Counted from the first letter of the stretch, positions 38,706-57,299 are shown. The stretch is DNA of 64,000 bases from Candidatus Buchananbacteria bacterium (GCA_041663485.1 JBAYMO010000001.1:11023-75022); one strand, 5' to 3'. Numbers and translations: made by a program. Notes: generated by a model from the sequence alone, not told the origin.

Positions 38706-40538
38706 TTAAATTATTCCTTCCCGAACCAGCATCCTGGCGTGTTCCCGCGGTAGAAATACTTCATTCTCGCGCCAATCAACTCGATTGCAAAATTCCAATA
38801 CCGATTTTTTTACCCATGTATCAATTATTTTTTCCGGCGGTAATTTGGTTAAATATTGCATTTTCTTATCACCACTTTTTTCGATATCTTCGGCAACTTC
38901 CGCCTGATGATCGACTAGTAAGACCTCACGGTAATAATTGCTTATTGTATCTTCAAAATTACTTTCAAATCCCCCGAAATGCCGGCCGCTGGCGATAATA
39001 CCAGGAAAAACTTTCGCAATCTCCCTTACTATTTCACGTTCGCGTCGCCGGCTGTCTTCCTCATCGGACCAAGCGTCCGTGCCAACACGTTTAAAAATGA
39101 CATTATATTTTTTTCTCAAAATATTTTTTACTAAATCAGTCATTTCAGTCGAGGACGGCACAAATTCAATCTGATCATTCTCACTATTTTTTGCCAAATT
39201 TTCTTCAGCCAGTCCGGTAGAAATTACGGTAGAATTTTTTGGAATTTTAATTCCCAATTTATTTGGATCAACCACCCAATATGTATCAGCCGGCATAAAA
39301 TTAGCCATTACACCATTTTCTTTTACCATTTGACCCAATGGCGCAAGAATACCAATATTACTTTTATCCCATTCCCCAGGGCCGATAAATCCCGCCGTGG
39401 CAATACCGTCGATGGCAAAATGCTCGGTAATTCGTCCAACTTTATTGCCAGTGGCCCCAGAATGCGTCGGAATTATCCAGTCGCCCGATTCCTGATCAAA
39501 GATTGGTTCATAGGCCGTCATGTGAATTGCGACGTGCTGGTCAAGCGCCTCAACCAAACGCTCCGGAATTTCCACTTCTTCGCCATTTTTATGGCGCTCA
39601 ATAAAATCTTCGAGATCTGCGATTACAGAAGAAATTTCTACGGCCTGTTTGCGAAAATTTTCTTTTTCATATTCCATCTTTGATTTAGATTCCGATTCTT
39701 GGATACTAGTTAAATTGATTTTATATCCAGCTAACACTAACTTACATTGACGAACCAGAAAAGGTGGCGAAAAATGTTTTTTCTTTTCTAATTCTTGCTG
39801 TAAATCCGCTGATATTCTTTTGTCGCCTAACAACGCCTGCAAAATTAGATTCCTGGCATTTTGAGAATTATCTCTTAAAATGCCGCTTTCATCAAAACTT
39901 AAAGCAATAATCATATCTTCCAAAACTTCGGTTTTTACCACATCGATTTCCGAGGCTGAAAACTGACCTTCCGGGAAAGAATTTCTGATCATGACCGCCA
40001 AGTCAGCCAATGACTTAGGCTGGCCATCAGCAACAAAAACGGCGCTACCTTTACTTGCGGCTTTCCTTAAATTATCCAGTTCGGCTTTTCTTAGGCCGGT
40101 TTTTGGTTTGGGATAATCCGCTTCCGATGGATTAATCCGGTATTCTTTAAAATTATATCCACCGGCCCTACACTGATAGTTGACATTAACCTGAGGATGA
40201 TATGGTTTAGTATATTCTCCGCTGAGATTTATATCATAAACCGCAGCGGCACTTTTTTCTAGACTAACTTTATTTTCCTTGATTTTTTCCGGCTCCCTGG
40301 CGTAAGGCACATCGCCGACCATCACTGCAACTTTATCTTTTACCATCTCCGGATCAAACAAATTTTCCTGGTCTTTGAAATAAACCGAAATTCTGGCATC
40401 ACCAATCTTATAAACATATTCGTTATACTGCAAACCGCTACTGTCTTGGCGTTCAATTGTTTCTACTTCAAACTTCGGCTGGGGCTCCACCTCAAACCCG
40501 ACTTCAGCTAAATTTTTTGATATTTCTCGACGCTCCAT
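38706..40538 (-). CDS. Hypothetical 610-aa soluble protein embedded in the hydrogenase/nickel operon
   Basis: Long ORF with no recognisable signature, lying between hydG and the Ni-transporter genes. Confidence 0.6.
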   Translation of the reverse strand: MERREISKNLAEVGFEVEPQPKFEVETIERQDSSGLQYNEYVYKIGDARISVYFKDQENLFDPEMVKDKVAVMVGDVPYAREPEKIKENKVSLEKSAAAVYDINLSGEYTKPYHPQVNVNYQCRAGGYNFKEYRINPSEADYPKPKTGLRKAELDNLRKAASKGSAVFVADGQPKSLADLAVMIRNSFPEGQFSASEIDVVKTEVLEDMIIALSFDESGILRDNSQNARNLILQALLGDKRISADLQQELEKKKHFSPPFLVRQCKLVLAGYKINLTSIQESESKSKMEYEKENFRKQAVEISSVIADLEDFIERHKNGEEVEIPERLVEALDQHVAIHMTAYEPIFDQESGDWIIPTHSGATGNKVGRITEHFAIDGIATAGFIGPGEWDKSNIGILAPLGQMVKENGVMANFMPADTYWVVDPNKLGIKIPKNSTVISTGLAEENLAKNSENDQIEFVPSSTEMTDLVKNILRKKYNVIFKRVGTDAWSDEEDSRRREREIVREIAKVFPGIIASGRHFGGFESNFEDTISNYYREVLLVDHQAEVAEDIEKSGDKKMQYLTKLPPEKIIDTWVKKSVLEFCNRVDWRENEVFLPREHARMLVREGII

Positions 40539-40594: not shown

Positions 40595-41413
40595 TCAAAC
40601 TGTCCCCGGGATATCTTTTAACTGAGCCCAAGAAAAAATCGGACCATCTTTACAGACATAATAAGGACCAATGGCGCAATGCTGACACACACCAACACCG
40701 CAATACATCTTTCTTTCCAAAGAAATATAAATATCTTCGTCTTTTACCCCCTGTTTCTTTAAATTTTCTATAACCGGTCGATACATTACCGGCGGACCAA
40801 CAACCAAAGCCACGGTATTGGCAAAATCCTGCTTTTTATTAAACAAAACCGTAATCACTCCGGTTGGACCCTTCCACTTTTTTGACGGGCTAGCCAAAAC
40901 CACATCCAAGCCAACTTTTTTTTGCCACTGACAGAATTCACGCTTAAAAAGTAAATTATGTTCATCCTGACAACCATAAAAAACATTAACTTTATTGGCA
41001 GGCAATTTACCGGCCAAAAAATCCAAAACAATTGAACGCATGACGATAAATCCCGAACCACCGCCCACCAAAAGCAAATCTTTCCCTTGGGTCATTTTCT
41101 CTGGCAAACCGTTACCAAATGGTCCCCTAACCGTTGCTTGATCACCAACATTTAGCTCGTGTAATTTGGTAGTTAAAGTACCCACTTTTCTGATAGCCAA
41201 ATCAAAAGTTTTAGTTTGACTGGCCGAGGAACAAATATCAAAAGCCGCCTCACCGTGATTTAGCAAACCAAGCATTAAAAACTGGCCATGATTAAAGGCA
41301 AAATTTATTCTGTTTTTTCTTTCAATAAACTCAAAAGTAAAAAGTTTAATGTCAGGCGTTTGCTCAACAATCTTTATCACTCTGACTAATTTTGGGATAT
41401 ACAAATTATGCAT
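40595..41413 (-). CDS. hydG: Hydrogenase gamma subunit / PyrK-like FAD-NAD(P) oxidoreductase with a 2Fe-2S cluster
   Basis: 272 aa; ferredoxin-reductase fold and C-terminal CGVGVCQHC...C. Confidence 0.75.
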   Translation of the reverse strand: MHNLYIPKLVRVIKIVEQTPDIKLFTFEFIERKNRINFAFNHGQFLMLGLLNHGEAAFDICSSASQTKTFDLAIRKVGTLTTKLHELNVGDQATVRGPFGNGLPEKMTQGKDLLLVGGGSGFIVMRSIVLDFLAGKLPANKVNVFYGCQDEHNLLFKREFCQWQKKVGLDVVLASPSKKWKGPTGVITVLFNKKQDFANTVALVVGPPVMYRPVIENLKKQGVKDEDIYISLERKMYCGVGVCQHCAIGPYYVCKDGPIFSWAQLKDIPGTV

Positions 41414-41417
41414 TGAT

Positions 41418-42404
41418 TTATTTAATCTTGCCTTTTAAAATTCTCTGCAAATTTTCTTTAATATCAATACCCACCGGACAAACTTTTGTACAACGACCAC
41501 AGCCGACACATCCGGGCAAAGAAATATCGTCGGGACAGCGGACAAATTTATGTTCATACCAAAATCTAATCCGACTCATAGTATTCGATAAAAATTTTGG
41601 TTTTTTTGAATCAATTTCCAAACCGGCCACTTCGGAAAAATCCGTATAAAAACAAGTAGTTTGCAACCGACAACGATCGCCACAGCCAGAGTTTAGTCCG
41701 GGCTGATCGCTAATATCAAAACAGAAACAGCACGGACAAATTACCGTACATTTGCCGCATTCAATACAAATTTTTCCCAGATCTTCCCAAATTTTATTAT
41801 CCTCATAAAACTTTTCTCTGATTTTTAACATCTGTGGATCTTTGCCTTCTTCTCTGATTGGTCCGACATATTCAACGTGATCGTAATTTTTATAACCAAA
41901 ATCGTCTAAAATTCGCTGCCCATCTTCTGAGCCGGTATAAACCAAATATTTGTCTTTACAAACAGCCAAGAATATATCAAATTTTAAATGCTCCAGCATG
42001 TCCTCTTGAAACTTTGCCAGAAAAAATTGCGTTCTCTCAGCGGGCACCAAACTATGACCGACAATCAAAGTGTTTTTTACGCGCTCCTGAAAGTAAGGAT
42101 CTTTGGCAAAAATTTGATTCAAAAAAGTTACTGCCTTTAAATCAACTACGGTCAGACCAAAAATCACTTGTTTAGGCGAGGTAAAATTCTGTTTAATTTG
42201 GTTTTTTTGATAAGAAAAAAGCACCTCTTTGGCAGGTACTAAAATTCGTTTAAATGAATGCAGAGGCAATTCATTAGTTAATTCAACTTTTTTGGGATCA
42301 TCAACTGTTTCCATGACCAATTCACCGTTAATTCTTTGCGGTGCCCAAACAATATTTTGTTGGGACAAATACTCAATAAATTGACGCAATTGTTTATTGG
42401 TCAT
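41418..42404 (-). CDS. hydB: Hydrogenase beta subunit (HydB/AsrA-like Fe-S protein)
   Basis: 328 aa; CIECGKCTVICP and CVGCGRCTKVCP, i.e. two 4Fe-4S motifs. Confidence 0.75.
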   Translation of the reverse strand: MTNKQLRQFIEYLSQQNIVWAPQRINGELVMETVDDPKKVELTNELPLHSFKRILVPAKEVLFSYQKNQIKQNFTSPKQVIFGLTVVDLKAVTFLNQIFAKDPYFQERVKNTLIVGHSLVPAERTQFFLAKFQEDMLEHLKFDIFLAVCKDKYLVYTGSEDGQRILDDFGYKNYDHVEYVGPIREEGKDPQMLKIREKFYEDNKIWEDLGKICIECGKCTVICPCCFCFDISDQPGLNSGCGDRCRLQTTCFYTDFSEVAGLEIDSKKPKFLSNTMSRIRFWYEHKFVRCPDDISLPGCVGCGRCTKVCPVGIDIKENLQRILKGKIK

Positions 42405-42564
42405 ATCTATTTTATTATAACATAAATTCAGAATATAACCAAGGAATAATTTACTAAAAAATTACTTCTTGAAAATAATTTTAAGCTTACCTGATTGACA
42501 AATCAATCTAGCCGGCATAATATGGCCATAGAATCTTTGCTGCTCTTTACTGGAGGGAACTAAC

Positions 42565-42783
42565 GTGGCAAAACAAACCGATACCTGGATAGAGGCCTGT
42601 CCAAACTGCGGCACCGAAGCCACATTAACACAATGGGCTTGCGGCTGCATCACCTGGACCTGGAAATCTGAAGATGTTAATAATGGGGGGCATAGCCGTA
42701 AATGTCCGACCGGAGACTTCTTTTCCAAAAGAGCCCACCTGTGCGCTGAGGGAAAAAATCCACATAGGCCATTGGAACATTAA
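42565..42783 (+). CDS. Cysteine-rich small protein (72 aa, zinc-ribbon-like) with a GTG start
   Basis: GGAGGG SD 6 nt upstream of the GTG. Motifs CPNCG...CGC...KCPTGD...C. Intrinsic terminator at 42784-42814. An antisense ORF at 42462-42728 overlaps it. Confidence 0.45.
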   Translation: MAKQTDTWIEACPNCGTEATLTQWACGCITWTWKSEDVNNGGHSRKCPTGDFFSKRAHLCAEGKNPHRPLEH

Positions 42784-42814
42784 CCCAACAAAACCGTAGT
42801 TGGGCTATTTTTTT
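42784..42814 (+). terminator. Intrinsic terminator
   Basis: Stem cccaac/gttggg with a 9-nt loop, followed by T8. Confidence 0.6.
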
Positions 42815-42831
42815 AATTTTAATTATATACT

Positions 42832-43317
42832 TTATTTATATTTATTTTTACTTGAAGCATTAAATTTAACCACCCCATCTAATATCCCCTGTTTAAATAA
42901 TTTCTCCCGCAAAATCAAATCATTTTTTCGTGAGTAAATAAATTTCAAATCTTTGACTAAATTCAACTCTACTATTAGCTCTTTTTTGGTCAATTTTTTT
43001 TGCTTAATAAAATTAATATAACAATTTTGATATTGTTTAACTGTTTTACAGTTTAAGTAATTTTGCGATCCAAATATTTTTTTATCTTCGGGCGTAGCTA
43101 AAACTAAACAAGTAGTAAACTTGTCGTTTTTCTTATTTTTTAATAAATTATAAAGCCGACAAGTGGCGCATTGGTTTTTACAATTTCTCACCTCAACACA
43201 ATCATAAATAAAACGATAACCTCGCCAATTGTCTAAAATAACGTTAATAAACCCAGAATATTTTTTTGACAATTTCTTGAATTCAGCTTCTGCTTGTTTA
43301 ATTATTTTTTGATTCAT
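42832..43317 (-). CDS. Hypothetical Cys-containing protein (161 aa)
   Basis: CVEVRNCKNQCATC cluster and native AT-rich codon usage. Confidence 0.5.
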   Translation of the reverse strand: MNQKIIKQAEAEFKKLSKKYSGFINVILDNWRGYRFIYDCVEVRNCKNQCATCRLYNLLKNKKNDKFTTCLVLATPEDKKIFGSQNYLNCKTVKQYQNCYINFIKQKKLTKKELIVELNLVKDLKFIYSRKNDLILREKLFKQGILDGVVKFNASSKNKYK

Positions 43318-43332
43318 AAATTTATACGAATA

Positions 43333-43380
43333 ATTTTTTTAAAAATGGTTGGGACAGTTATCTTGTTATTCTGTCCCAAC
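43333..43380 (-). terminator. Intrinsic terminator of the radical SAM gene
   Basis: 10-bp stem gttgggacag/ctgtcccaac followed by a U-run on the minus strand. Confidence 0.6.
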
Positions 43381-43390
43381 CCAACTCAAA

Positions 43391-44434
43391 TTAGAGGTAC
43401 GCCATGGGGCATAGGGTATAACCCCCGAAAGGATCGCCCATACCTTCGACCGTGGCTCGACATCCGCCGCGACATTTCTCCCATTTGGCACAGGAATGGC
43501 AAGGTTCCTTGACCAGACTTTGATCCAATTTCAAACGATGGCAAATCAAAGGTGATTCGTAGGCTGCCTGAATCGGATTGGTGTCAGAAATTCGAGCCAA
43601 AACCACGGGGCTATTAGTACAAGCCCGAATTGACCCATCTACGGCAAAATACAAACCTTTGTCATAGAACGGGCACGAACCAAAGACATGCGGCATTAAA
43701 ACTTCAGCCGGCTCCAAACCAAACTCCGCTCGAACTGACTGAATGGCCAAAATCATTTCCGCAATCTGCGGCGGCGTTGGCGCCACTTGCCAATAGTCTG
43801 GCCCAATGGTCTCGCCCGAGCCCATCAATTCCAGATCAGTACCAATATTCTGTTGCAAACACCAGCGATAATACTCAGATGCCAAGCCGATATTTTCCTG
43901 ACGAATCAAATTCTGCAAGCGCAAAAGCGGTTGGGTATAACCAGCCTGCTGCAAAATACCAATCGCCTCAATCATCCTTTGCGCTTGAACCTGGCTCTGA
44001 CCAATCATTTTTGCCTGCAAGGGCAGCTGGGTCTGATCGGCCGGATTAATGTTGAGCTTGCCGGTAATGTGAATCTGCCGCTCAAATAACCACTGGGCCA
44101 AGGCCGGAGTAATGGCCAGCATATTGGTAAAAATCCACGGTAGAATGCCCCGCTCAAGCAAAATCTCAATGTACTGGCGCAGATTGGGCCAAAGCAGCGG
44201 ATCGCCGCCCAGCAAATCCATAGTTTCCAGCTCCGAGCCGCGATAATCACGACAAAGATCCAAAACCCTGATCGCCTGATCCAGCGACATCTCGCCATGA
44301 TTCAAAGCCTTACGCCTAACCATGTAACATCCCGGACAAGCGCATTGACATCGACTTGTTACCTCAATAATGCCATAGCGTAAACCACAAGCCTGACCTG
44401 ATTGTAGATAACGATCTTTCTGATTTGTCTGCAT
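43391..44434 (-). CDS. Radical SAM enzyme with a C-terminal SPASM/twitch-like Cys-rich domain
   Basis: CQCACPGC (CxxxCxxC) motif; C-terminal CHSCAKWEKCRGGCRA. The start was moved to the internal ATG preceded by a GGAGGA SD. GC is about 48%. Confidence 0.75.
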   Translation of the reverse strand: MQTNQKDRYLQSGQACGLRYGIIEVTSRCQCACPGCYMVRRKALNHGEMSLDQAIRVLDLCRDYRGSELETMDLLGGDPLLWPNLRQYIEILLERGILPWIFTNMLAITPALAQWLFERQIHITGKLNINPADQTQLPLQAKMIGQSQVQAQRMIEAIGILQQAGYTQPLLRLQNLIRQENIGLASEYYRWCLQQNIGTDLELMGSGETIGPDYWQVAPTPPQIAEMILAIQSVRAEFGLEPAEVLMPHVFGSCPFYDKGLYFAVDGSIRACTNSPVVLARISDTNPIQAAYESPLICHRLKLDQSLVKEPCHSCAKWEKCRGGCRATVEGMGDPFGGYTLCPMAYL

Positions 44435-44471
44435 GGAATGCTTCCTCCAAAGTGTAAAGAGCCTGATTTTT

Positions 44472-44501
44472 GCTAATGCAAAAACCCCGCCACAAGCGGG
44501 G
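44472..44501 (-). terminator. Hairpin plus U-run between the yerC-like and radical SAM genes (terminator or attenuator)
   Basis: ccccgc/gcgggg stem with a uugug loop followed by UUUUUG. It lies within the N-terminal 31 codons of the longest ORF call. Confidence 0.4.
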
Positions 44502-44528
44502 CAATTAGACATTTTTAAAAATCTCAAA

Positions 44529-44882
44529 TCACCTCGATCGTGGCGAGTTGATTCGATGATGATTATTTAATTTGATATTATTATTCATAGTTTTATTATT
44601 TTTAGATAACGCCAATTTGTAACCCCCTTCACCATAATTTAACCAATAAGCGACGCGAGTAACCGTGGTCGTCGATAAACCGGTTTTTTGGGCAATTTCG
44701 CGATAAGGCTTGCCCCGGCTGATCATTTTTACCGCTTGCCAACGGCTAGTCATTTCCTTTAATTCTTCCAGGGTGCAAAGATCACGAAAAAATTTTGCTA
44801 CTTCACCGGTTTTTTTCAATTTCAAAATTGCTTTAAATAATTCCGTGCTTTCTTTGTTTTGCCAGACAAATTTTGAAGCCAT
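44529..44882 (-). CDS. YerC/YecD (TrpR-like) helix-turn-helix protein
   Basis: ELFKAILKLKKTGEVAKFFRDLCTLEELKEMTSRWQAVKMISRGKPYREIAQKTGLSTTTVTRV aligns closely with B. subtilis YerC. The start was moved to MASKF because the longer call overlaps the promoter. Confidence 0.7.
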   Translation of the reverse strand: MASKFVWQNKESTELFKAILKLKKTGEVAKFFRDLCTLEELKEMTSRWQAVKMISRGKPYREIAQKTGLSTTTVTRVAYWLNYGEGGYKLALSKNNKTMNNNIKLNNHHRINSPRSR

Positions 44883-44911
44883 AGGCTGTTTCAATGTTTT
44901 AATATGATAAT

Positions 44912-44940
44912 ACATTACCACGGTCATAGAATTATGTCAA
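44912..44940 (-). promoter_or_regulatory. Sigma70 promoter (TTGACA-17-TAATGT) for the yerC-like gene
   Basis: Plus-strand tgtcaa at 44935-44940 and acatta at 44912-44917. Confidence 0.5.
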
Positions 44941-44954
44941 GACCTGAAATAACC

Positions 44955-56159: not shown

Positions 56160-57299
56160 TCAGCCCCTGCCGACGTTTGCGCGTTGCTTTTTGCTGCGTT
56201 TGGCCACGACCGCCTGGCCCGGCTTGACTTCTTCCAAGGCTTGCTTGGCTATCGTCGTGTCGGGTTGTTCGATGGCCACTTCGTCGTGGTGAACGGCTTC
56301 CACTTCCTGCACCTCCGTGCCCTGGGGCAGTTCCTGCGCGGGAACGTGAATGGCTTCGGGTACGGCATTGGCCGATTTCAGCGCAGCGTGTAGGGCTTCG
56401 CCTAGCTGGCCAAAGCCGCTGCCGCTGATCGCGGGCGCAGGCGCCTGAACGACCGGCTTCGGTTTGGCCGCCTTGGTCGCGGCGAACCGCTGAAGCCCCT
56501 CCCAATCCGTCTTGGTCAGGAAGGTGTAGTTGACTGCGAATAAATCGCGACCAACCTTGACCGCGATGAACTGGCAGATCGTGCGCGGCTCACTGACCAG
56601 CATGTACTCCGCGTTGGCGGAAATATGCTGCCCCCGATGAAACCCCGTTGGCACCAGAATCGAGAAGCACCGGGCCTCCCGATCCATCGAGACAAACACG
56701 CACCCCGTGCGTTCCGTCTCGATCAGACAGTAATTTCCCTCCCCGGTCGGAAAGTTGACCATGGAACCCTGAAGGGCGAGGCTGATGTTCCCGTCAACGC
56801 GACATTGCGTCAGACCGACCACCAGAATTCCATTCTTCTGGCGATAGATTTGCACAGCCGCCGCCGCATTGATTGAATCCGTCAATGCCATCTGGTAACC
56901 GGCCTGGCTGGCCTCATGGATTTTGTTCAACTCGTCGGCCTTGGCCTCGGCCGTGGCCAACATTTCCTCGATTCCGACGACACCATTATCGACGGCCATT
57001 TTCAGGCCGTCGACAGCTTTGCGCGCGACCGACAATTCGGCCGGCACATTATCCATGGCCGACTGCCAGGCCTTGTAGACACTGAGGCTGGTGGGCCTCG
57101 TGTCAAATACGGCCAACCCACTGTCTTGGTGGGTCAGGCCACACAAGGCCTGCGCGTCGCCGAACTTGACAAGCTGCAAGTTGGCCGGGTCTGACGGGAC
57201 CAAGAGCACTCGCATGCCCAGCCAGCCTTCGCCAACTGAGACCAAGCCTGCGCCGAAGTCAACTTCGACTTCCGGCCCGCACGATGGATTTGCACTCAT
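56160..57299 (-). CDS. Hypothetical 379-aa protein encoded by a roughly 60% GC island, probably of foreign origin
   Basis: The only long ORF spanning the 56.1-57.3 kb GC-rich block; GGAGGAAACGAC-ATG SD. The C-terminal tail AKRSKKQRANVGRG is basic and Ala/Pro/Lys-rich. No recognisable domain. Confidence 0.6.
   Translation of the reverse strand: MSANPSCGPEVEVDFGAGLVSVGEGWLGMRVLLVPSDPANLQLVKFGDAQALCGLTHQDSGLAVFDTRPTSLSVYKAWQSAMDNVPAELSVARKAVDGLKMAVDNGVVGIEEMLATAEAKADELNKIHEASQAGYQMALTDSINAAAAVQIYRQKNGILVVGLTQCRVDGNISLALQGSMVNFPTGEGNYCLIETERTGCVFVSMDREARCFSILVPTGFHRGQHISANAEYMLVSEPRTICQFIAVKVGRDLFAVNYTFLTKTDWEGLQRFAATKAAKPKPVVQAPAPAISGSGFGQLGEALHAALKSANAVPEAIHVPAQELPQGTEVQEVEAVHHDEVAIEQPDTTIAKQALEEVKPGQAVVAKRSKKQRANVGRG

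What the first reader, a model, noticed from the sequence alone, without database searches (positions are those of the whole stretch)
42460..44945. YerC/TrpR-like regulator - radical SAM/SPASM enzyme - cysteine-rich small proteins at elevated GC
A YerC/YecD-type HTH gene has its own TTGACA-17-TAATGT promoter. A hairpin plus U-run follows it, then a radical SAM enzyme (CxxxCxxC plus a C-terminal SPASM-like Cys cluster) with a GGAGGA SD and its own terminator. Downstream are a 161-aa protein carrying CxxxxxCxxxCxxC, and a convergent 72-aa Cys-rich protein (GTG start, GGAGGG SD, own terminator) with an antisense ORF lying entirely over it. The rSAM gene's GC of about 48% is above the genome background. 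rSAM-SPASM enzymes usually modify peptides or proteins (RiPP maturases, anSME-like enzymes). The neighbouring Cys-rich products are candidate substrates. Given the position next to hydB and hydG, a role in metallo-cofactor or Fe-S protein maturation is also possible.
Basis: partly seen in the sequence, partly recalled or inferred. Interest (0 to 1): 0.65.

Follow-up and report, generated by a model that had tools for sequence, protein, structure and literature searches.

The report
Histidine-regulated radical SAM operon in CPR bacteria
This is one copy of a three-gene unit found in scattered ultra-small (CPR) bacteria, made of a histidine-type repressor, an iron-sulfur radical enzyme and an unknown cysteine-bearing protein, and it appears to be switched on when histidine runs short; what the enzyme pair does is unknown.

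Summary
Comparison with about 30 related loci changes which parts belong together. The conserved unit is yerC/hisR-like, then radical SAM/SPASM, then the 161-aa protein. The 161-aa gene follows the rSAM in 27 of 29 evaluable loci, all Patescibacteria. The 72-aa Cys-rich ORF has no homologue and is missing from the closest relative. hydB/hydG are neighbours only in close relatives.

The rSAM matches no curated family. Its fold is closest to anSME and SuiB-type SPASM enzymes, and it has no RRE domain. The 161-aa protein keeps CxxxCxxC plus two more Cys, is almost free of histidine, and has no known fold relative.

The main new result concerns regulation. Each promoter carries a 20-bp palindrome matching one of the two published HisR operator consensus sequences. 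The hairpin plus U-run after yerC is preceded by conserved His-His codons. These lie in the YerC tail or, in five loci, in a separate 15-25-aa mini-ORF. An alternative pairing is supported by covariation, so the region has the anatomy of a histidine attenuator. hisS is adjacent in three different arrangements.

Function is inferred: a histidine-limitation-induced enzyme pair of unknown chemistry. The RiPP and hydrogenase-maturation readings are weakly supported.

The parts
44912..44940 (-). Sigma-70-like promoter of the operon: TTGACA at 44940..44935, a 17-nt spacer, TAATGT at 44917..44912.
   Evidence: Read from the sequence. It has the same layout as the promoters upstream of yerC-like genes in related loci. 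No promoter-like site lies on the - strand between the attenuator terminator and the rSAM start.
44895..44914 (-). 20-bp palindromic HisR/TrpR-type operator TGTATTA-TCATAT-TAAAACA. It overlaps the -10 box and the transcription start region.
   Evidence: It is the only match in the 64-kb window to TGTATTA-N6-TAATACA at up to 2 mismatches. The same motif sits at the yerC or leader promoter in L029, L010, L005, L006, L015, L016, L018, L022, L023 and L026: 18 hits at 12 of 14 or better against 3.9 in shuffles, 13 of them at these promoters. Eleven other loci carry the CTTTA-N6-TAAAG type instead. Both types match published HisR consensus sequences (PMC9413887).
44529..44882 (-). yerC/hisR-like repressor gene (117 aa): a TrpR-fold HTH domain plus a C-terminal tail ...KLNNHHRINSPRSR*.
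   Evidence: Pfam PF01371 at 2e-24. TIGR02531 yecD_yerC at 84.4 bits against a cutoff of 42.2. The best solved relatives are 3FRW, 3G1C (E. eligens HisR) and 3KOR. It lies immediately upstream of the rSAM in 25 of 29 related loci.
44524..44561 (-). Leader segment of the putative attenuator. It holds the tandem His codons CAT CAT (44561..44556), the tail codons, the stop (44531..44529) and hairpin 1 (44556..44524).
   Evidence: His-His lies 5-13 codons before the stop in 21 of 26 leaders. It is found either as a YerC tail or as a separate 15-25-aa mini-ORF (L006, L010, L015, L016, L025). Residues after HH vary, but the purine/pyrimidine class of the bases is conserved.
44479..44502 (-). Intrinsic terminator of the attenuator: GCCCCGC-TTG-TGGCGGGG followed by TTTTT, 26 nt after the yerC stop.
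   Evidence: Found by the terminator scan. A hairpin plus U-run lies 17-37 nt after the leader stop in 24 of 25 loci, often with the conserved sequence CCCCTTCTC..GAGAAGGGG. Alternative pairing of its 5' arm with the leader tail is predicted.
44443..44462 (-). Conserved GCTCTTTACAC element and the GGAGGA Shine-Dalgarno (44448..44443) in front of the rSAM start. A small SD-sequestering helix is possible.
   Evidence: A TTCTTTACA-N3-8-GGAGG pattern recurs upstream of the rSAM in most loci. A mini-helix is predicted in the window fold. The sequestering role is inferred only.
43391..44434 (-). Radical SAM/SPASM enzyme, 347 aa.
43348..43380 (-). Intercistronic hairpin GTTGGGACAG-(13 nt)-CTGTCCCAAC followed by CATTTTT, between the rSAM and the 161-aa gene.
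   Evidence: A strong 10-17-bp GC-rich hairpin (dG -15 to -31 kcal/mol) occupies this spacer in all 27 loci that have both genes. The sequence differs between loci while the structure is kept. Its role as a partial terminator or RNA stabiliser is inferred.
42832..43317 (-). 161-aa partner protein (p161). It is basic and Lys-rich, has no His, carries conserved C46xxxC50xxC53, C90 and C99 plus many invariant polar residues, and has a novel fold.
42784..42805 (.). Bidirectional hairpin CCCAAC-(9 nt)-GTTGGG that ends the operon. On the + strand it is the terminator of the orphan 72-aa ORF.
   Evidence: Read from the sequence. The T-run is on the + strand side.

Best explanation
The region is the window's copy of an accessory operon found patchily across Patescibacteria (CPR). 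The gene order is hisR-like repressor (YerC/TrpR family), radical SAM/SPASM enzyme, then a 161-aa Cys-bearing protein of unknown fold.

Shown by comparison:
- The three genes travel together while their flanks vary.
- The promoter carries a 20-bp palindrome of the HisR/TrpR operator type.
- A short coding stretch with tandem His codons is always followed, about 26 nt after its stop, by a hairpin plus U-run. This stretch is either the end of the repressor gene or a separate mini-ORF.
- The 5' arm of that hairpin can pair alternatively with the end of the His-containing ORF.

Inferred mechanism:
- The HisR-like protein represses its own operon when histidine is available.
- Transcripts that do start are terminated at the hairpin if ribosomes run through to the stop codon.
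- When His-tRNA is scarce, a ribosome stalls on the His codons and covers region 1. This leaves region 2 free to pair with the terminator's 5' arm. The terminator cannot form, and RNA polymerase reads into the rSAM and 161-aa genes.
- This is the logic of the E. coli trp operon (TrpR repression plus attenuation) and of the E. coli his operon attenuator, except that here the repressor gene's own last codons serve as the leader peptide.

The two downstream proteins would therefore be made under histidine limitation. The rSAM is an anSME-like SPASM enzyme without a peptide-recognition (RRE) domain. It most probably acts on, or together with, the 161-aa protein, which looks like a metal or Fe-S binding protein with an active or binding site. 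The chemical reaction is not known.
For: Linkage:
- The 161-aa homologue is immediately downstream of the rSAM on the same strand in 27 of 29 evaluable loci.
- A yerC-like gene is adjacent in 25 of 29 non-window loci.
- Look-ups anchored on the 161-aa protein always show the rSAM upstream.
- Pairwise identity matrices for the genes are correlated (Mantel r 0.47, p 5e-4).

HisR identity:
- TIGR02531 is above its cutoff.
- The best solved relatives are YerC/HisR structures, including 3G1C.

Operators:
- There are 17 perfect CTTTA-N6-TAAAG palindromes in about 430 kb, against 0.7 in shuffles. Sixteen lie within 40 nt upstream of the yerC start, in 11 loci.
- The TGTAnTA-N6-TAnTACA type has 18 hits against 3.9 in shuffles, 13 at yerC or leader promoters. 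These include the only site in the window.
- Both types equal published HisR consensus motifs, and hisR as first gene with its site upstream is the arrangement published for Proteobacteria (PMC9413887).

Attenuator:
- HH is conserved in tails and in five stand-alone mini-ORFs.
- A terminator lies 17-37 nt after the leader stop in 24 of 25 loci.
- An antiterminator is predicted, with mean z -2.1 against shuffles over 17 loci.
- Cognate pairings are more stable than non-cognate ones (permutation p 0.0009).
- The RNAalifold consensus contains the region 2:3 pairing. It has 28 pairs, 13 with compensatory changes.
- Amino acids after HH vary while purine/pyrimidine class is conserved and Leu is always TTG.
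- There is no promoter-like site between the terminator and the rSAM start.

Histidine theme:
- hisS (TIGR00442 above cutoff) is adjacent in three different arrangements, in L003, L012 and L027.
- The 161-aa family is about ten-fold depleted in His.

Against: - Nothing here is experimental.
- Only 2-3 His codons are present. Published His attenuators have 3-7.
- In the window itself the predicted antiterminator is weak (5 of 8 arm bases, z -0.9). The free-RNA minimum-energy fold is a long 1:4+2:3 hairpin rather than the classical 1:2+3:4 pair.
- Sequences in the covariation tests are related, so the p-values are optimistic.
- The co-repressor is unknown. The acidic helix-2 residues that the authors suggested might contact histidine are partly changed, for example FFED to FFRD.
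- Four loci lack a yerC-like gene (L002, L003, L004, L025; L025 retains an HH mini-ORF plus terminator). L002 and L004 lack a clear HH leader. Two loci (L011, L027) lack the 161-aa gene.
- One divergent 161-aa homologue (L030) is not next to an rSAM.
- CPR bacteria are generally regarded as amino-acid auxotrophs. It is therefore not obvious what a two-protein module could contribute to histidine supply.
- No direct evidence says whether the 161-aa protein is a substrate, a partner or an independent enzyme.
Confidence: 0.6

Rival explanations
1. RiPP-type system. The short His-His-containing peptide (the YerC tail or the stand-alone mini-ORF) is the precursor that the rSAM/SPASM enzyme modifies. 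The hairpin behind it is the leaky terminator that RiPP operons commonly use to make more precursor than enzyme. The 161-aa protein is an accessory, carrier or immunity factor.
For: - A small ORF or tail lies immediately upstream of an rSAM/SPASM gene, with a hairpin between them.
- The nearest structural relatives are mostly RiPP maturases.
- HH is the one conserved peptide feature.
Against: - In most loci the 'precursor' would be the C-terminus of a DNA-binding repressor.
- Everything except HH varies at the amino-acid level while nucleotide class is conserved. Third codon positions and the exclusive TTG Leu codon are included, which points to RNA-level rather than peptide-level selection.
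- There is no RRE domain in the rSAM, whose core starts at about residue 20. The 161-aa model shows no RRE or PqqD-like fold match.
- The enzyme is 60-70% identical across classes, which is unusual for a maturase of hypervariable peptides.
- This reading does not explain the HisR operators or the hisS linkage.
Confidence: 0.12
2. The 161-aa protein is the dedicated protein substrate of the rSAM, as sulfatases are for anSME or QhpC is for QhpD. The rSAM installs a modification on its Cys-rich segment, such as a thioether cross-link or oxidation, to make a mature functional protein. This is the surviving part of the first reader's idea. It is compatible with the histidine-responsive regulation in the main explanation and is a sub-hypothesis of it.
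For: - The gene pairing is strict and reciprocal.
- The enzyme is anSME-like without an RRE.
- Five invariant Cys and an invariant Trp, Asp and Glu are present in the 161-aa protein.
Against: - The protein is predicted to be well folded (pLDDT 90). It has about 14 invariant polar residues spread over the fold, which looks more like an enzyme or ligand-binding site than a modification target.
- CxxxCxxC plus a fourth Cys is a typical metal or Fe-S ligand set.
- Divergent family members occur without the rSAM.
- A C_GCAxxG_C_C redox-domain fusion exists, which suggests a redox-partner role instead.
Confidence: 0.3
3. Metallocofactor, hydrogenase or Fe-S protein maturation linked to the neighbouring hydB/hydG genes.
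For: - HydB/AsrA-like and HydG/AsrB-like genes follow the cassette in the window, L010 and L029.
- A HypC-like gene lies nearby in L029.
Against: - The adjacency is confined to these close relatives. In the other loci the flanks are ArgRS, RibD, EF-G, IF-3, SmpB, UvrA, glycosyltransferases and similar genes.
- The rSAM does not match HydE, HydG or other maturase models.
- In the window the two units are separated by the 0.4-kb orphan insertion and by terminators.
Confidence: 0.04
4. The pair acts on the translation apparatus for histidine, for example a modification of tRNA-His, HisRS or a His-decoding factor, or on a small molecule that is converted to histidine (a salvage reaction). Under this reading the 161-aa protein is a basic nucleic-acid-binding or nucleotide-binding partner.
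For: - hisS is adjacent in three different arrangements.
- The 161-aa protein is very basic (K+R 21%).
- Its weak but repeated best fold matches are minimal nucleotidyltransferases.
- Known HisR regulons comprise histidine supply genes (PMC9413887).
Against: - Known RNA-modifying rSAM enzymes lack SPASM domains, and the top fold matches are protein or peptide modifiers.
- The NTase signature (G[GS]...DxD) is absent from the 161-aa protein.
- No candidate small-molecule substrate can be named from the data.
Confidence: 0.15

Closest known systems
E. coli trp operon control (TrpR repression plus trpL attenuation) and the enterobacterial his operon attenuator (hisL)
   Same: - A TrpR-family repressor binds a 20-bp palindrome at the promoter.
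- A translated stretch with tandem regulatory codons is followed by mutually exclusive hairpins, the last being an intrinsic terminator.
- The stop codon lies at region 2, so a terminating ribosome favours the terminator.
   Different: - The 'leader peptide' is the C-terminal tail of the repressor gene itself in most loci. It is a separate 15-25-aa ORF in only five.
- There are only 2-3 His codons.
- The controlled genes are not amino-acid biosynthesis genes.
- The organisms are CPR bacteria. I found no description of ribosome-mediated attenuation there in the searched literature.
HisR (YerC) histidine repressor regulons of Firmicutes, Actinobacteria and Proteobacteria (Ashniev et al. 2022, PMC9413887)
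   Same: - Same protein family: TIGR02531, with best PDB hits including HisR 3G1C.
- Operators match both published consensus types, cacTTTAnnnnnnTAAAgtg and TGTAnTArnnnnyTnTTACA.
- hisR is the first gene of the regulated operon with the site upstream, as in Proteobacteria.
   Different: - Known targets are his biosynthesis genes and histidine transporters. Here the targets are an rSAM/SPASM enzyme and an unknown protein, plus hisS in some loci.
- Histidine binding is not shown, and some conserved acidic residues differ.
- The paper's phylum list, as read, does not include CPR.
Anaerobic sulfatase-maturating enzyme (anSME) and SPASM RiPP maturases (SuiB, CteB, SkfB, ChlB, TigE, PqqE)
   Same: - A radical SAM core is followed by a full 7-Cys SPASM domain.
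- Like anSME, the enzyme has no N-terminal RRE domain.
   Different: - Sequence identity is 10-14%.
- No curated equivalog is reached (best 30 bits against cutoffs of 265-650).
- There is no sulfatase or recognisable precursor peptide.
- Extra invariant Cys are present (C61, C192).
- The partner is a 161-aa folded protein.
Conserved rSAM plus small Cys-rich protein pairs (QhpD-QhpC; SCIFF peptide and its maturase)
   Same: A highly conserved SPASM enzyme is encoded next to a conserved Cys-containing small product.
   Different: - The 161-aa protein is larger, is predicted to be globular, and has many invariant non-Cys residues.
- No cross-link evidence exists.
- No amine dehydrogenase subunits are present.
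- These resemblances are recalled from general knowledge and were not tested here.
Minimal nucleotidyltransferases (MNT antitoxins, KNTase/ANT(4'), the GlnE and DrrA adenylyl-transferase domains), as fold neighbours of the 161-aa protein
   Different: - The scores are at or below significance.
- The strand order differs: a beta-hairpin carries D29 and D39.
- The G[GS] and DxD catalytic signature is absent.
- A Cys cluster is inserted.

Membership tests
Radical SAM superfamily | CxxxCxxC motif ligating the SAM-binding [4Fe-4S] cluster, in a partial TIM barrel | tested here: met
SPASM-domain rSAM subfamily | C-terminal 7-Cys motif CX9-15GX4C - gap - CX2CX5CX3C - gap - C for two auxiliary clusters | tested here: met
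   C254-x12-G267-x4-C272, C312xxC315x5C321x3C325 and C342 are all invariant. The TIGR04085 HMM scores 23.5 against a cutoff of 27, so the profile score alone is below threshold. The AlphaFold model of this part has low confidence (pLDDT below 50 for residues 301-347).
anSME or any named SPASM equivalog (PqqE, MftC, NirJ, AhbC, SbtM, HxsB, PapB, and others) | Score above the curated equivalog cutoff | tested here: not met
   The best NCBIfam hits score 24-30 bits against cutoffs of 265-650. A PDB profile search gives only PqqE at E 2e-4 and ChlB at 1e-3.
RiPP maturase with recognition element | An RRE (PqqD-like) domain in the enzyme or in a partner protein, and a precursor peptide with a conserved leader or core | tested here: not met
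HisR / YerC-YecD branch of the TrpR family | Sequence membership (TIGR02531, PF01371) | tested here: met
   TIGR02531 scores 84.4 bits against a cutoff of 42.2, and PF01371 gives 2e-24. The best PDB hits are 3FRW, 3G1C and 3KOR at 1e-16 to 2e-18. E. coli TrpR is not among the hits.
HisR / YerC-YecD branch of the TrpR family | A 20-bp palindromic operator of HisR consensus at the regulated promoter | tested here: met
   See, compared with the consensus sequences quoted in PMC9413887.
HisR / YerC-YecD branch of the TrpR family | Histidine as co-repressor | not testable with these tools
   There is only indirect support: the HH leader, hisS linkage and the His-poor product. Some conserved acidic residues of helix 2 differ.
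Ribosome-mediated transcription attenuator (his/trp leader type) | A translated ORF with tandem regulatory codons immediately upstream of region 1 | tested here: met
   HH (CAT CAT, sometimes a third His) lies 0-2 codons before the pyrimidine-rich arm in 21 of 26 leaders. There are only 2-3 codons. In the window the ORF is the repressor gene, not a mini-ORF.
Ribosome-mediated transcription attenuator (his/trp leader type) | An intrinsic terminator and a mutually exclusive antiterminator | tested here: met
   Terminators are present in 24 of 25 loci. Support for the 2:3 pairing comes from shuffles, cognate against non-cognate comparison, and an RNAalifold consensus with compensatory changes. 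The signal is weak in the window copy itself.
Ribosome-mediated transcription attenuator (his/trp leader type) | Read-through that responds to charged tRNA-His | not testable with these tools
   This needs in vitro or in vivo assays.
Known cis-regulatory RNA families (T-box, riboswitches) | A match to an Rfam covariance model | tested here: not met
   There was no match to any cis-regulatory RNA family at gathering score in the window or in 8 related loci; the only matches there were tRNAs outside the leaders.
Hydrogenase or Fe-S maturation systems (HydE/HydG, Hyp) | Homology to maturases and conserved linkage to hydrogenase genes | tested here: not met
   There is no family hit. hydB/hydG are adjacent only in the window, L010 and L029.
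Anti-phage defence systems | A match to PADLOC models | tested here: not met
   There is only a generic viperin-like rSAM hit at 29 bits. The other proteins give nothing significant (one marginal CARF hit for YerC at E 0.003).

The most novel reading that the evidence does not exclude
CPR bacteria carry a previously unrecognised histidine-limitation response. A radical SAM/SPASM enzyme and a novel-fold, His-free Fe-S or metal protein carry out a new reaction. That reaction supplies or spares histidine, or adapts His-tRNA decoding. The pair is controlled by a compact dual switch in which a HisR-type repressor gene ends in its own histidine leader peptide and attenuator.
Probability: 0.3. Interest if true: 0.8.

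Novelty: new variant of a known kind. Interest (0 to 1): 0.64.

Why it matters
CPR/Patescibacteria make up a large share of bacterial diversity. They have tiny genomes, and little is known about how they regulate genes or cope with nutrient shortage.

If the reading is right, three things follow:
- This would be a clear case of classical amino-acid attenuation combined with a TrpR-family repressor in CPR. It has an unusual economy of design, because the regulator's last codons act as the leader peptide.
- An uncharacterised rSAM/SPASM family that is conserved at 60-70% identity, and a protein family with no known fold, become tied to a specific physiological signal, histidine. This turns two 'hypothetical' genes into a testable problem.
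- Radical SAM chemists get a defined enzyme-partner pair to reconstitute.

If the histidine link is wrong, the conserved operon and its structured leader still stand as an uncharacterised CPR-specific module.

Tried and rejected
- **72-aa ORF as part of the system.** There is no tblastn hit in 28 loci and no homologue, not even itself, in the 5.8-billion-protein set. It is absent from the closest relative, where the 161-aa gene is 48 nt from hydB. The spacer in L010 does not align. There is no meaningful Rfam match at E up to 10; the one hit is a spurious trypanosomatid mitochondrial rRNA match. There is no phage DNA match and no excess RNA structure (z 0.18). I treat it as an orphan insertion.
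- **Known RNA family for the leader.** No cis-regulatory family was found at gathering score; the only hits were tRNAs outside the leaders.
- **Defence system.** PADLOC gave only a generic viperin-like hit.
- **Housekeeping family for the rSAM.** None was found.
- **Metagenome scans anchored on divergent 161-aa homologues.** The third returned a single locus without an rSAM.
- **A fourth conserved gene between leader and rSAM** in loci with long spacers. None was found.
- **Separate horizontal transfer of the rSAM as the cause of its high GC.** The distance matrices of the three genes are positively correlated, so this is not supported. The GC contrast remains unexplained.
- **Literature.** Searches found no description of this operon.

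Full report
**What is in the window.** All coordinates are on the minus strand between 44940 and 42784.
- The promoter is TTGACA-17-TAATGT at 44940..44912.
- A YerC/TrpR-like gene follows. Its likely start is the ATG at 44882, and its stop is at 44531..44529.
- A hairpin GCCCCGC-TTG-TGGCGGGG plus a U-run lies at 44502..44484.
- A GGAGGA Shine-Dalgarno precedes a 347-aa radical SAM gene (44434..43391).
- A 10-bp hairpin with a T-run lies at 43380..43348.
- A 161-aa gene (43317..42832) follows, and then a bidirectional hairpin.
- Convergent to this, on the plus strand, is a 72-aa Cys-rich ORF (42565..42783) with its own promoter-like site, SD and terminator.
- hydB/asrA-like and hydG/asrB-like genes follow at 42404..40595.
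- The 378-aa rSAM ORF listed mechanically begins inside the hairpin. Homologues show that the conserved protein starts near the ATG at 44434.

**Identity of the proteins.**
- The first gene matches TIGR02531 (YerC/YecD) at 84 bits against a cutoff of 42. Its best solved relatives are the YerC/HisR structures 3FRW, 3G1C and 3KOR.
- The rSAM has the CxxxCxxC motif and a complete seven-Cys SPASM motif, all invariant in 24 homologues. It reaches no curated family. The best equivalog scores are 24-30 bits against cutoffs of 265-650.
- The rSAM AlphaFold model has pLDDT 74.5, and its SPASM tail is poorly modelled.
- The 161-aa protein has no family in Pfam, NCBIfam or PADLOC.
- Its alignment keeps C46xxxC50xxC53, C90 and C99, D29-x-W31-R32-G33-x-R35, and further polar residues.

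**Which genes belong together.**
- The window is from a Candidatus Buchananbacteria MAG, shown by 100% matches to the rSAM and the 161-aa protein.
- The rSAM has 176 homologues. The 120 listed are 58-85% identical over the full length, and every one that carries a taxon label is from Patescibacteria.
- A scan of one genome per species (185,579 species) found only 28 loci. All are CPR, apart from some evidently mislabelled MAGs. The cassette is therefore patchy and accessory, yet strongly conserved.
- tBLASTn, ORF clustering and HMM searches of these loci gave the linkage counts. The 161-aa homologue lies immediately downstream on the same strand in 27 of 29 evaluable loci. A yerC-like gene is adjacent in 25 of 29.
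- Flanking genes vary: ArgRS, RibD, EF-G, IF-3, SmpB, UvrA, glycosyltransferases and others.
- Look-ups anchored on three 161-aa homologues again showed Trp_repressor, then Radical_SAM, then the 161-aa gene.
- The 72-aa ORF is in none of the loci and has no homologue at all.
- In the closest relative (L029, rSAM 85% identical) the 161-aa gene is followed by hydB after 48 nt. The 0.4-kb GC-rich segment carrying the 72-aa ORF is therefore a window-specific insertion.
- hydB/hydG are neighbours only in the window, L010 and L029.

**Regulation: the operator.**
- The published HisR study identifies B. subtilis YerC as the histidine repressor HisR (PMC9413887). It gives two operator consensus sequences.
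  - cacTTTAnnnnnnTAAAgtg for Firmicutes, Actinobacteria and Synergistetes.
  - TGTAnTArnnnnyTnTTACA for Proteobacteria, where hisR is the first gene of the regulated operon.
- Both types occur here at exactly the expected place.
- Perfect CTTTA-N6-TAAAG palindromes occur 17 times in about 430 kb of loci, against 0.7 in shuffles. Sixteen lie within 40 nt upstream of the yerC-like start in 11 loci, often as two sites 18 nt apart.
- The other loci carry TGTAnTA-N6-TAnTACA. There are 18 hits at 12 of 14 or better, against 3.9 in shuffles, and 13 of them are at yerC or leader promoters.
- The window's site, TGTATTATCATATTAAAACA at 44914..44895, overlaps the -10 box. It is the only such site in 64 kb.

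**Regulation: the attenuator-like leader.**
- The hairpin plus U-run after yerC is conserved in position, 17-37 nt after the upstream stop codon in 24 of 25 loci. In many loci it is also conserved in sequence, as CCCCTTCTC-loop-GAGAAGGGG-TTTT.
- The ORF ending in front of it carries His-His, sometimes His-His-His, 5-13 codons before its stop in 21 of 26 cases.
- In most loci this is a C-terminal tail of the YerC-like protein. The window's tail is ...NNHHRINSPRSR*.
- Where YerC lacks the tail, a separate mini-ORF carries it:
  - L006: MNDKAIQNLNRVHHDNFFSPEKGLC*
  - L010: MNIISQKLHHQITSP*
  - L015: ...NNLHHTKGLG*
  - L016: ...NLTHHKISFE*
  - L025: ...ISIVHHSPSQAFEKRPV*
- After the His codons the amino acids vary, with 4-6 different residues per position. 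The bases keep a pyrimidine-rich then purine-rich pattern, third positions are constrained, and Leu is always TTG. The constraint is therefore on the RNA.
- This tail forms hairpin 1, whose arms repeat the terminator arms. Region 2, the end of the ORF, can therefore pair with the terminator's 5' arm (region 3).
- That 2:3 pairing is supported in three ways.
  - It is predicted when the His-proximal part is masked as by a stalled ribosome. It engages 8-12 of 9-14 arm bases in most loci against 3-6 in shuffles, with mean z -2.1 over 17 loci.
  - It is stronger for cognate than for non-cognate pairs (permutation p 0.0009).
  - It is part of the RNAalifold consensus of 11 leaders, which has 28 pairs, 13 with compensatory changes.
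- No promoter-like site lies between the terminator and the rSAM start. The rSAM therefore depends on read-through.
- The geometry is that of classical his and trp attenuators. The His codons sit just 5' of region 1, the stop lies at the end of region 2, and the spacing to the terminator is fixed.
- In the window copy the signal is weaker (z -0.9). The free RNA folds into a long 1:4+2:3 hairpin. With a ribosome at the stop codon the terminator is predicted. With a ribosome at the His codons the 2:3 helix forms before region 4 is transcribed.

**Further links to histidine.**
- hisS, with TIGR00442 above its cutoff, is adjacent in three different arrangements.
  - L003: hisS then rSAM, in tandem.
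  - L012: hisS is divergent from yerC, with the HisR box between them.
  - L027: yerC then hisS, divergent from the rSAM.
- The canonical 161-aa family contains 0.19% His against 1.95% in neighbouring proteins. Eleven of 16 members have none. Depletion of this kind has been reported for proteins made during starvation for that amino acid.

**How it most likely works.**
- Shown: the conserved operon, the operator motif, the HH-terminator anatomy and its alternative pairing, and the enzyme class.
- Inferred: autorepression by the HisR-like protein with histidine as co-repressor.
- Inferred: ribosome stalling at the His codons relieves termination, so the rSAM and the 161-aa protein are produced when histidine is limiting.
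- Inferred: the two proteins act together.
- Whether the 161-aa protein is a substrate, an Fe-S or redox partner, or a second enzyme is open.
  - Its many invariant polar residues argue for a partner or enzyme.
  - So does a C_GCAxxG_C_C redox-domain fusion in a divergent member.
  - So does a divergent homologue found without an rSAM.
  - The strict pairing and the anSME-like enzyme keep the substrate model alive.

**Rivals.**
- A RiPP reading, with the HH peptide as precursor and a leaky terminator, fits the gene order. It does not explain the nucleotide-level conservation, the fusion to a repressor, the missing RRE, the HisR operators or hisS.
- The hydrogenase-maturation idea has no comparative support.
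- A role on tRNA-His or HisRS, or in histidine salvage, is compatible with the regulation but has no direct evidence.

**Other observations.**
- Every locus has a strong hairpin in the short spacer between the rSAM and the 161-aa gene.
- In almost every locus the rSAM gene is GC-richer than its surroundings: 0.526 against 0.450, with GC3 0.58.
- The 161-aa gene is GC-poorer, at 0.350 with GC3 0.37.
- Joint horizontal transfer cannot explain deviations in opposite directions. The three genes' distance matrices are positively correlated.

**Verdict.** The real feature is a CPR-specific, histidine-regulated operon encoding an rSAM/SPASM enzyme and an unknown protein. I found no description of it in the searchable literature.

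Noticed in passing
window 42440-42830: A GC-rich (0.51) 0.4-kb segment lies between the 161-aa gene and hydB. It carries an orphan 72-aa ORF (CPNC...CGC zinc-ribbon-like) with its own promoter-like site, SD and terminator. It is absent from the closest relative L029, and the L010 spacer sequence is different. It has no protein homologue, no Rfam family, no phage DNA match and no excess RNA structure.
   Followed up: yes
window 43348-43380, and the rSAM-to-p161 spacer of all 27 loci that have both genes: A strong 10-17-bp GC-rich hairpin (dG -15 to -31 kcal/mol) is present in every locus, usually followed by a T-rich stretch. The sequence differs between loci while the structure is kept. It could be a partial terminator, a processing site or an mRNA stabiliser that sets the enzyme-to-partner ratio.
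   Followed up: partly
window 43391-44434 versus 42832-43317, and the same genes in L001-L029: Two adjacent genes of one operon deviate from the host GC content in opposite directions in nearly all loci. The rSAM is higher (GC3 up to 0.82 in a 0.37-GC genome, L015) and the 161-aa gene is lower. The 161-aa gene's GC tracks the host (r 0.94), while the rSAM's tracks it less well (r 0.61). This is unexplained.
   Followed up: partly
window 44443-44462 and the equivalent position in most loci: A conserved (G)TTCTTTACA element lies 3-8 nt upstream of the GGAGG Shine-Dalgarno of the rSAM. It may form a small SD-sequestering helix, which would be a second, translational layer of control.
   Followed up: no
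L018, L019, L021, L023, L024 and L026 (a weaker version in L027), between the terminator and the rSAM start: The Peribacteria-type leaders and L023 carry two extra conserved hairpins, GAAATCCGC-nnnn-GCGGATTCCC-nnnn-GGGAGAGC. There is no Rfam match at gathering score. This may be an additional structured leader element.
   Followed up: partly
L005 1662-1681 and 2403-2422: Two further TGT-type HisR-like palindromes flank a 216-aa multi-pass membrane protein with no Pfam family (1705-2355), about 5 kb from the cassette. It is a candidate second regulon member, possibly a transporter.
   Followed up: partly
L008 2974-4074; L033 1781-2472: L008 has a second, distantly related rSAM/SPASM gene directly upstream of its yerC-like gene. 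L033 has two tandem Trp_repressor genes and an extra 97-aa ORF in front of the rSAM.
   Followed up: no
Proteins P0205, P0137 and P0224: A divergent 161-aa-family domain is fused to a C_GCAxxG_C_C 'probable redox protein' domain in P0205 and to an unknown N-terminal region in P0224. P0137 joins the first 134 residues of an rSAM to a 161-aa-type protein and is probably a deletion or an assembly chimera.
   Followed up: partly
window 1-64000: The whole 64-kb window contains no tRNA, rRNA or other Rfam family at gathering score.
   Followed up: no
window 56160-57299 (-): A 379-aa ORF lies in a local GC peak (0.57 against about 0.40 for the window). A long antisense ORF overlaps it. It was not examined further.
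   Followed up: no
window 38706-40538 (-): A 610-aa ORF downstream of hydG has no Pfam or NCBIfam match.
   Followed up: no
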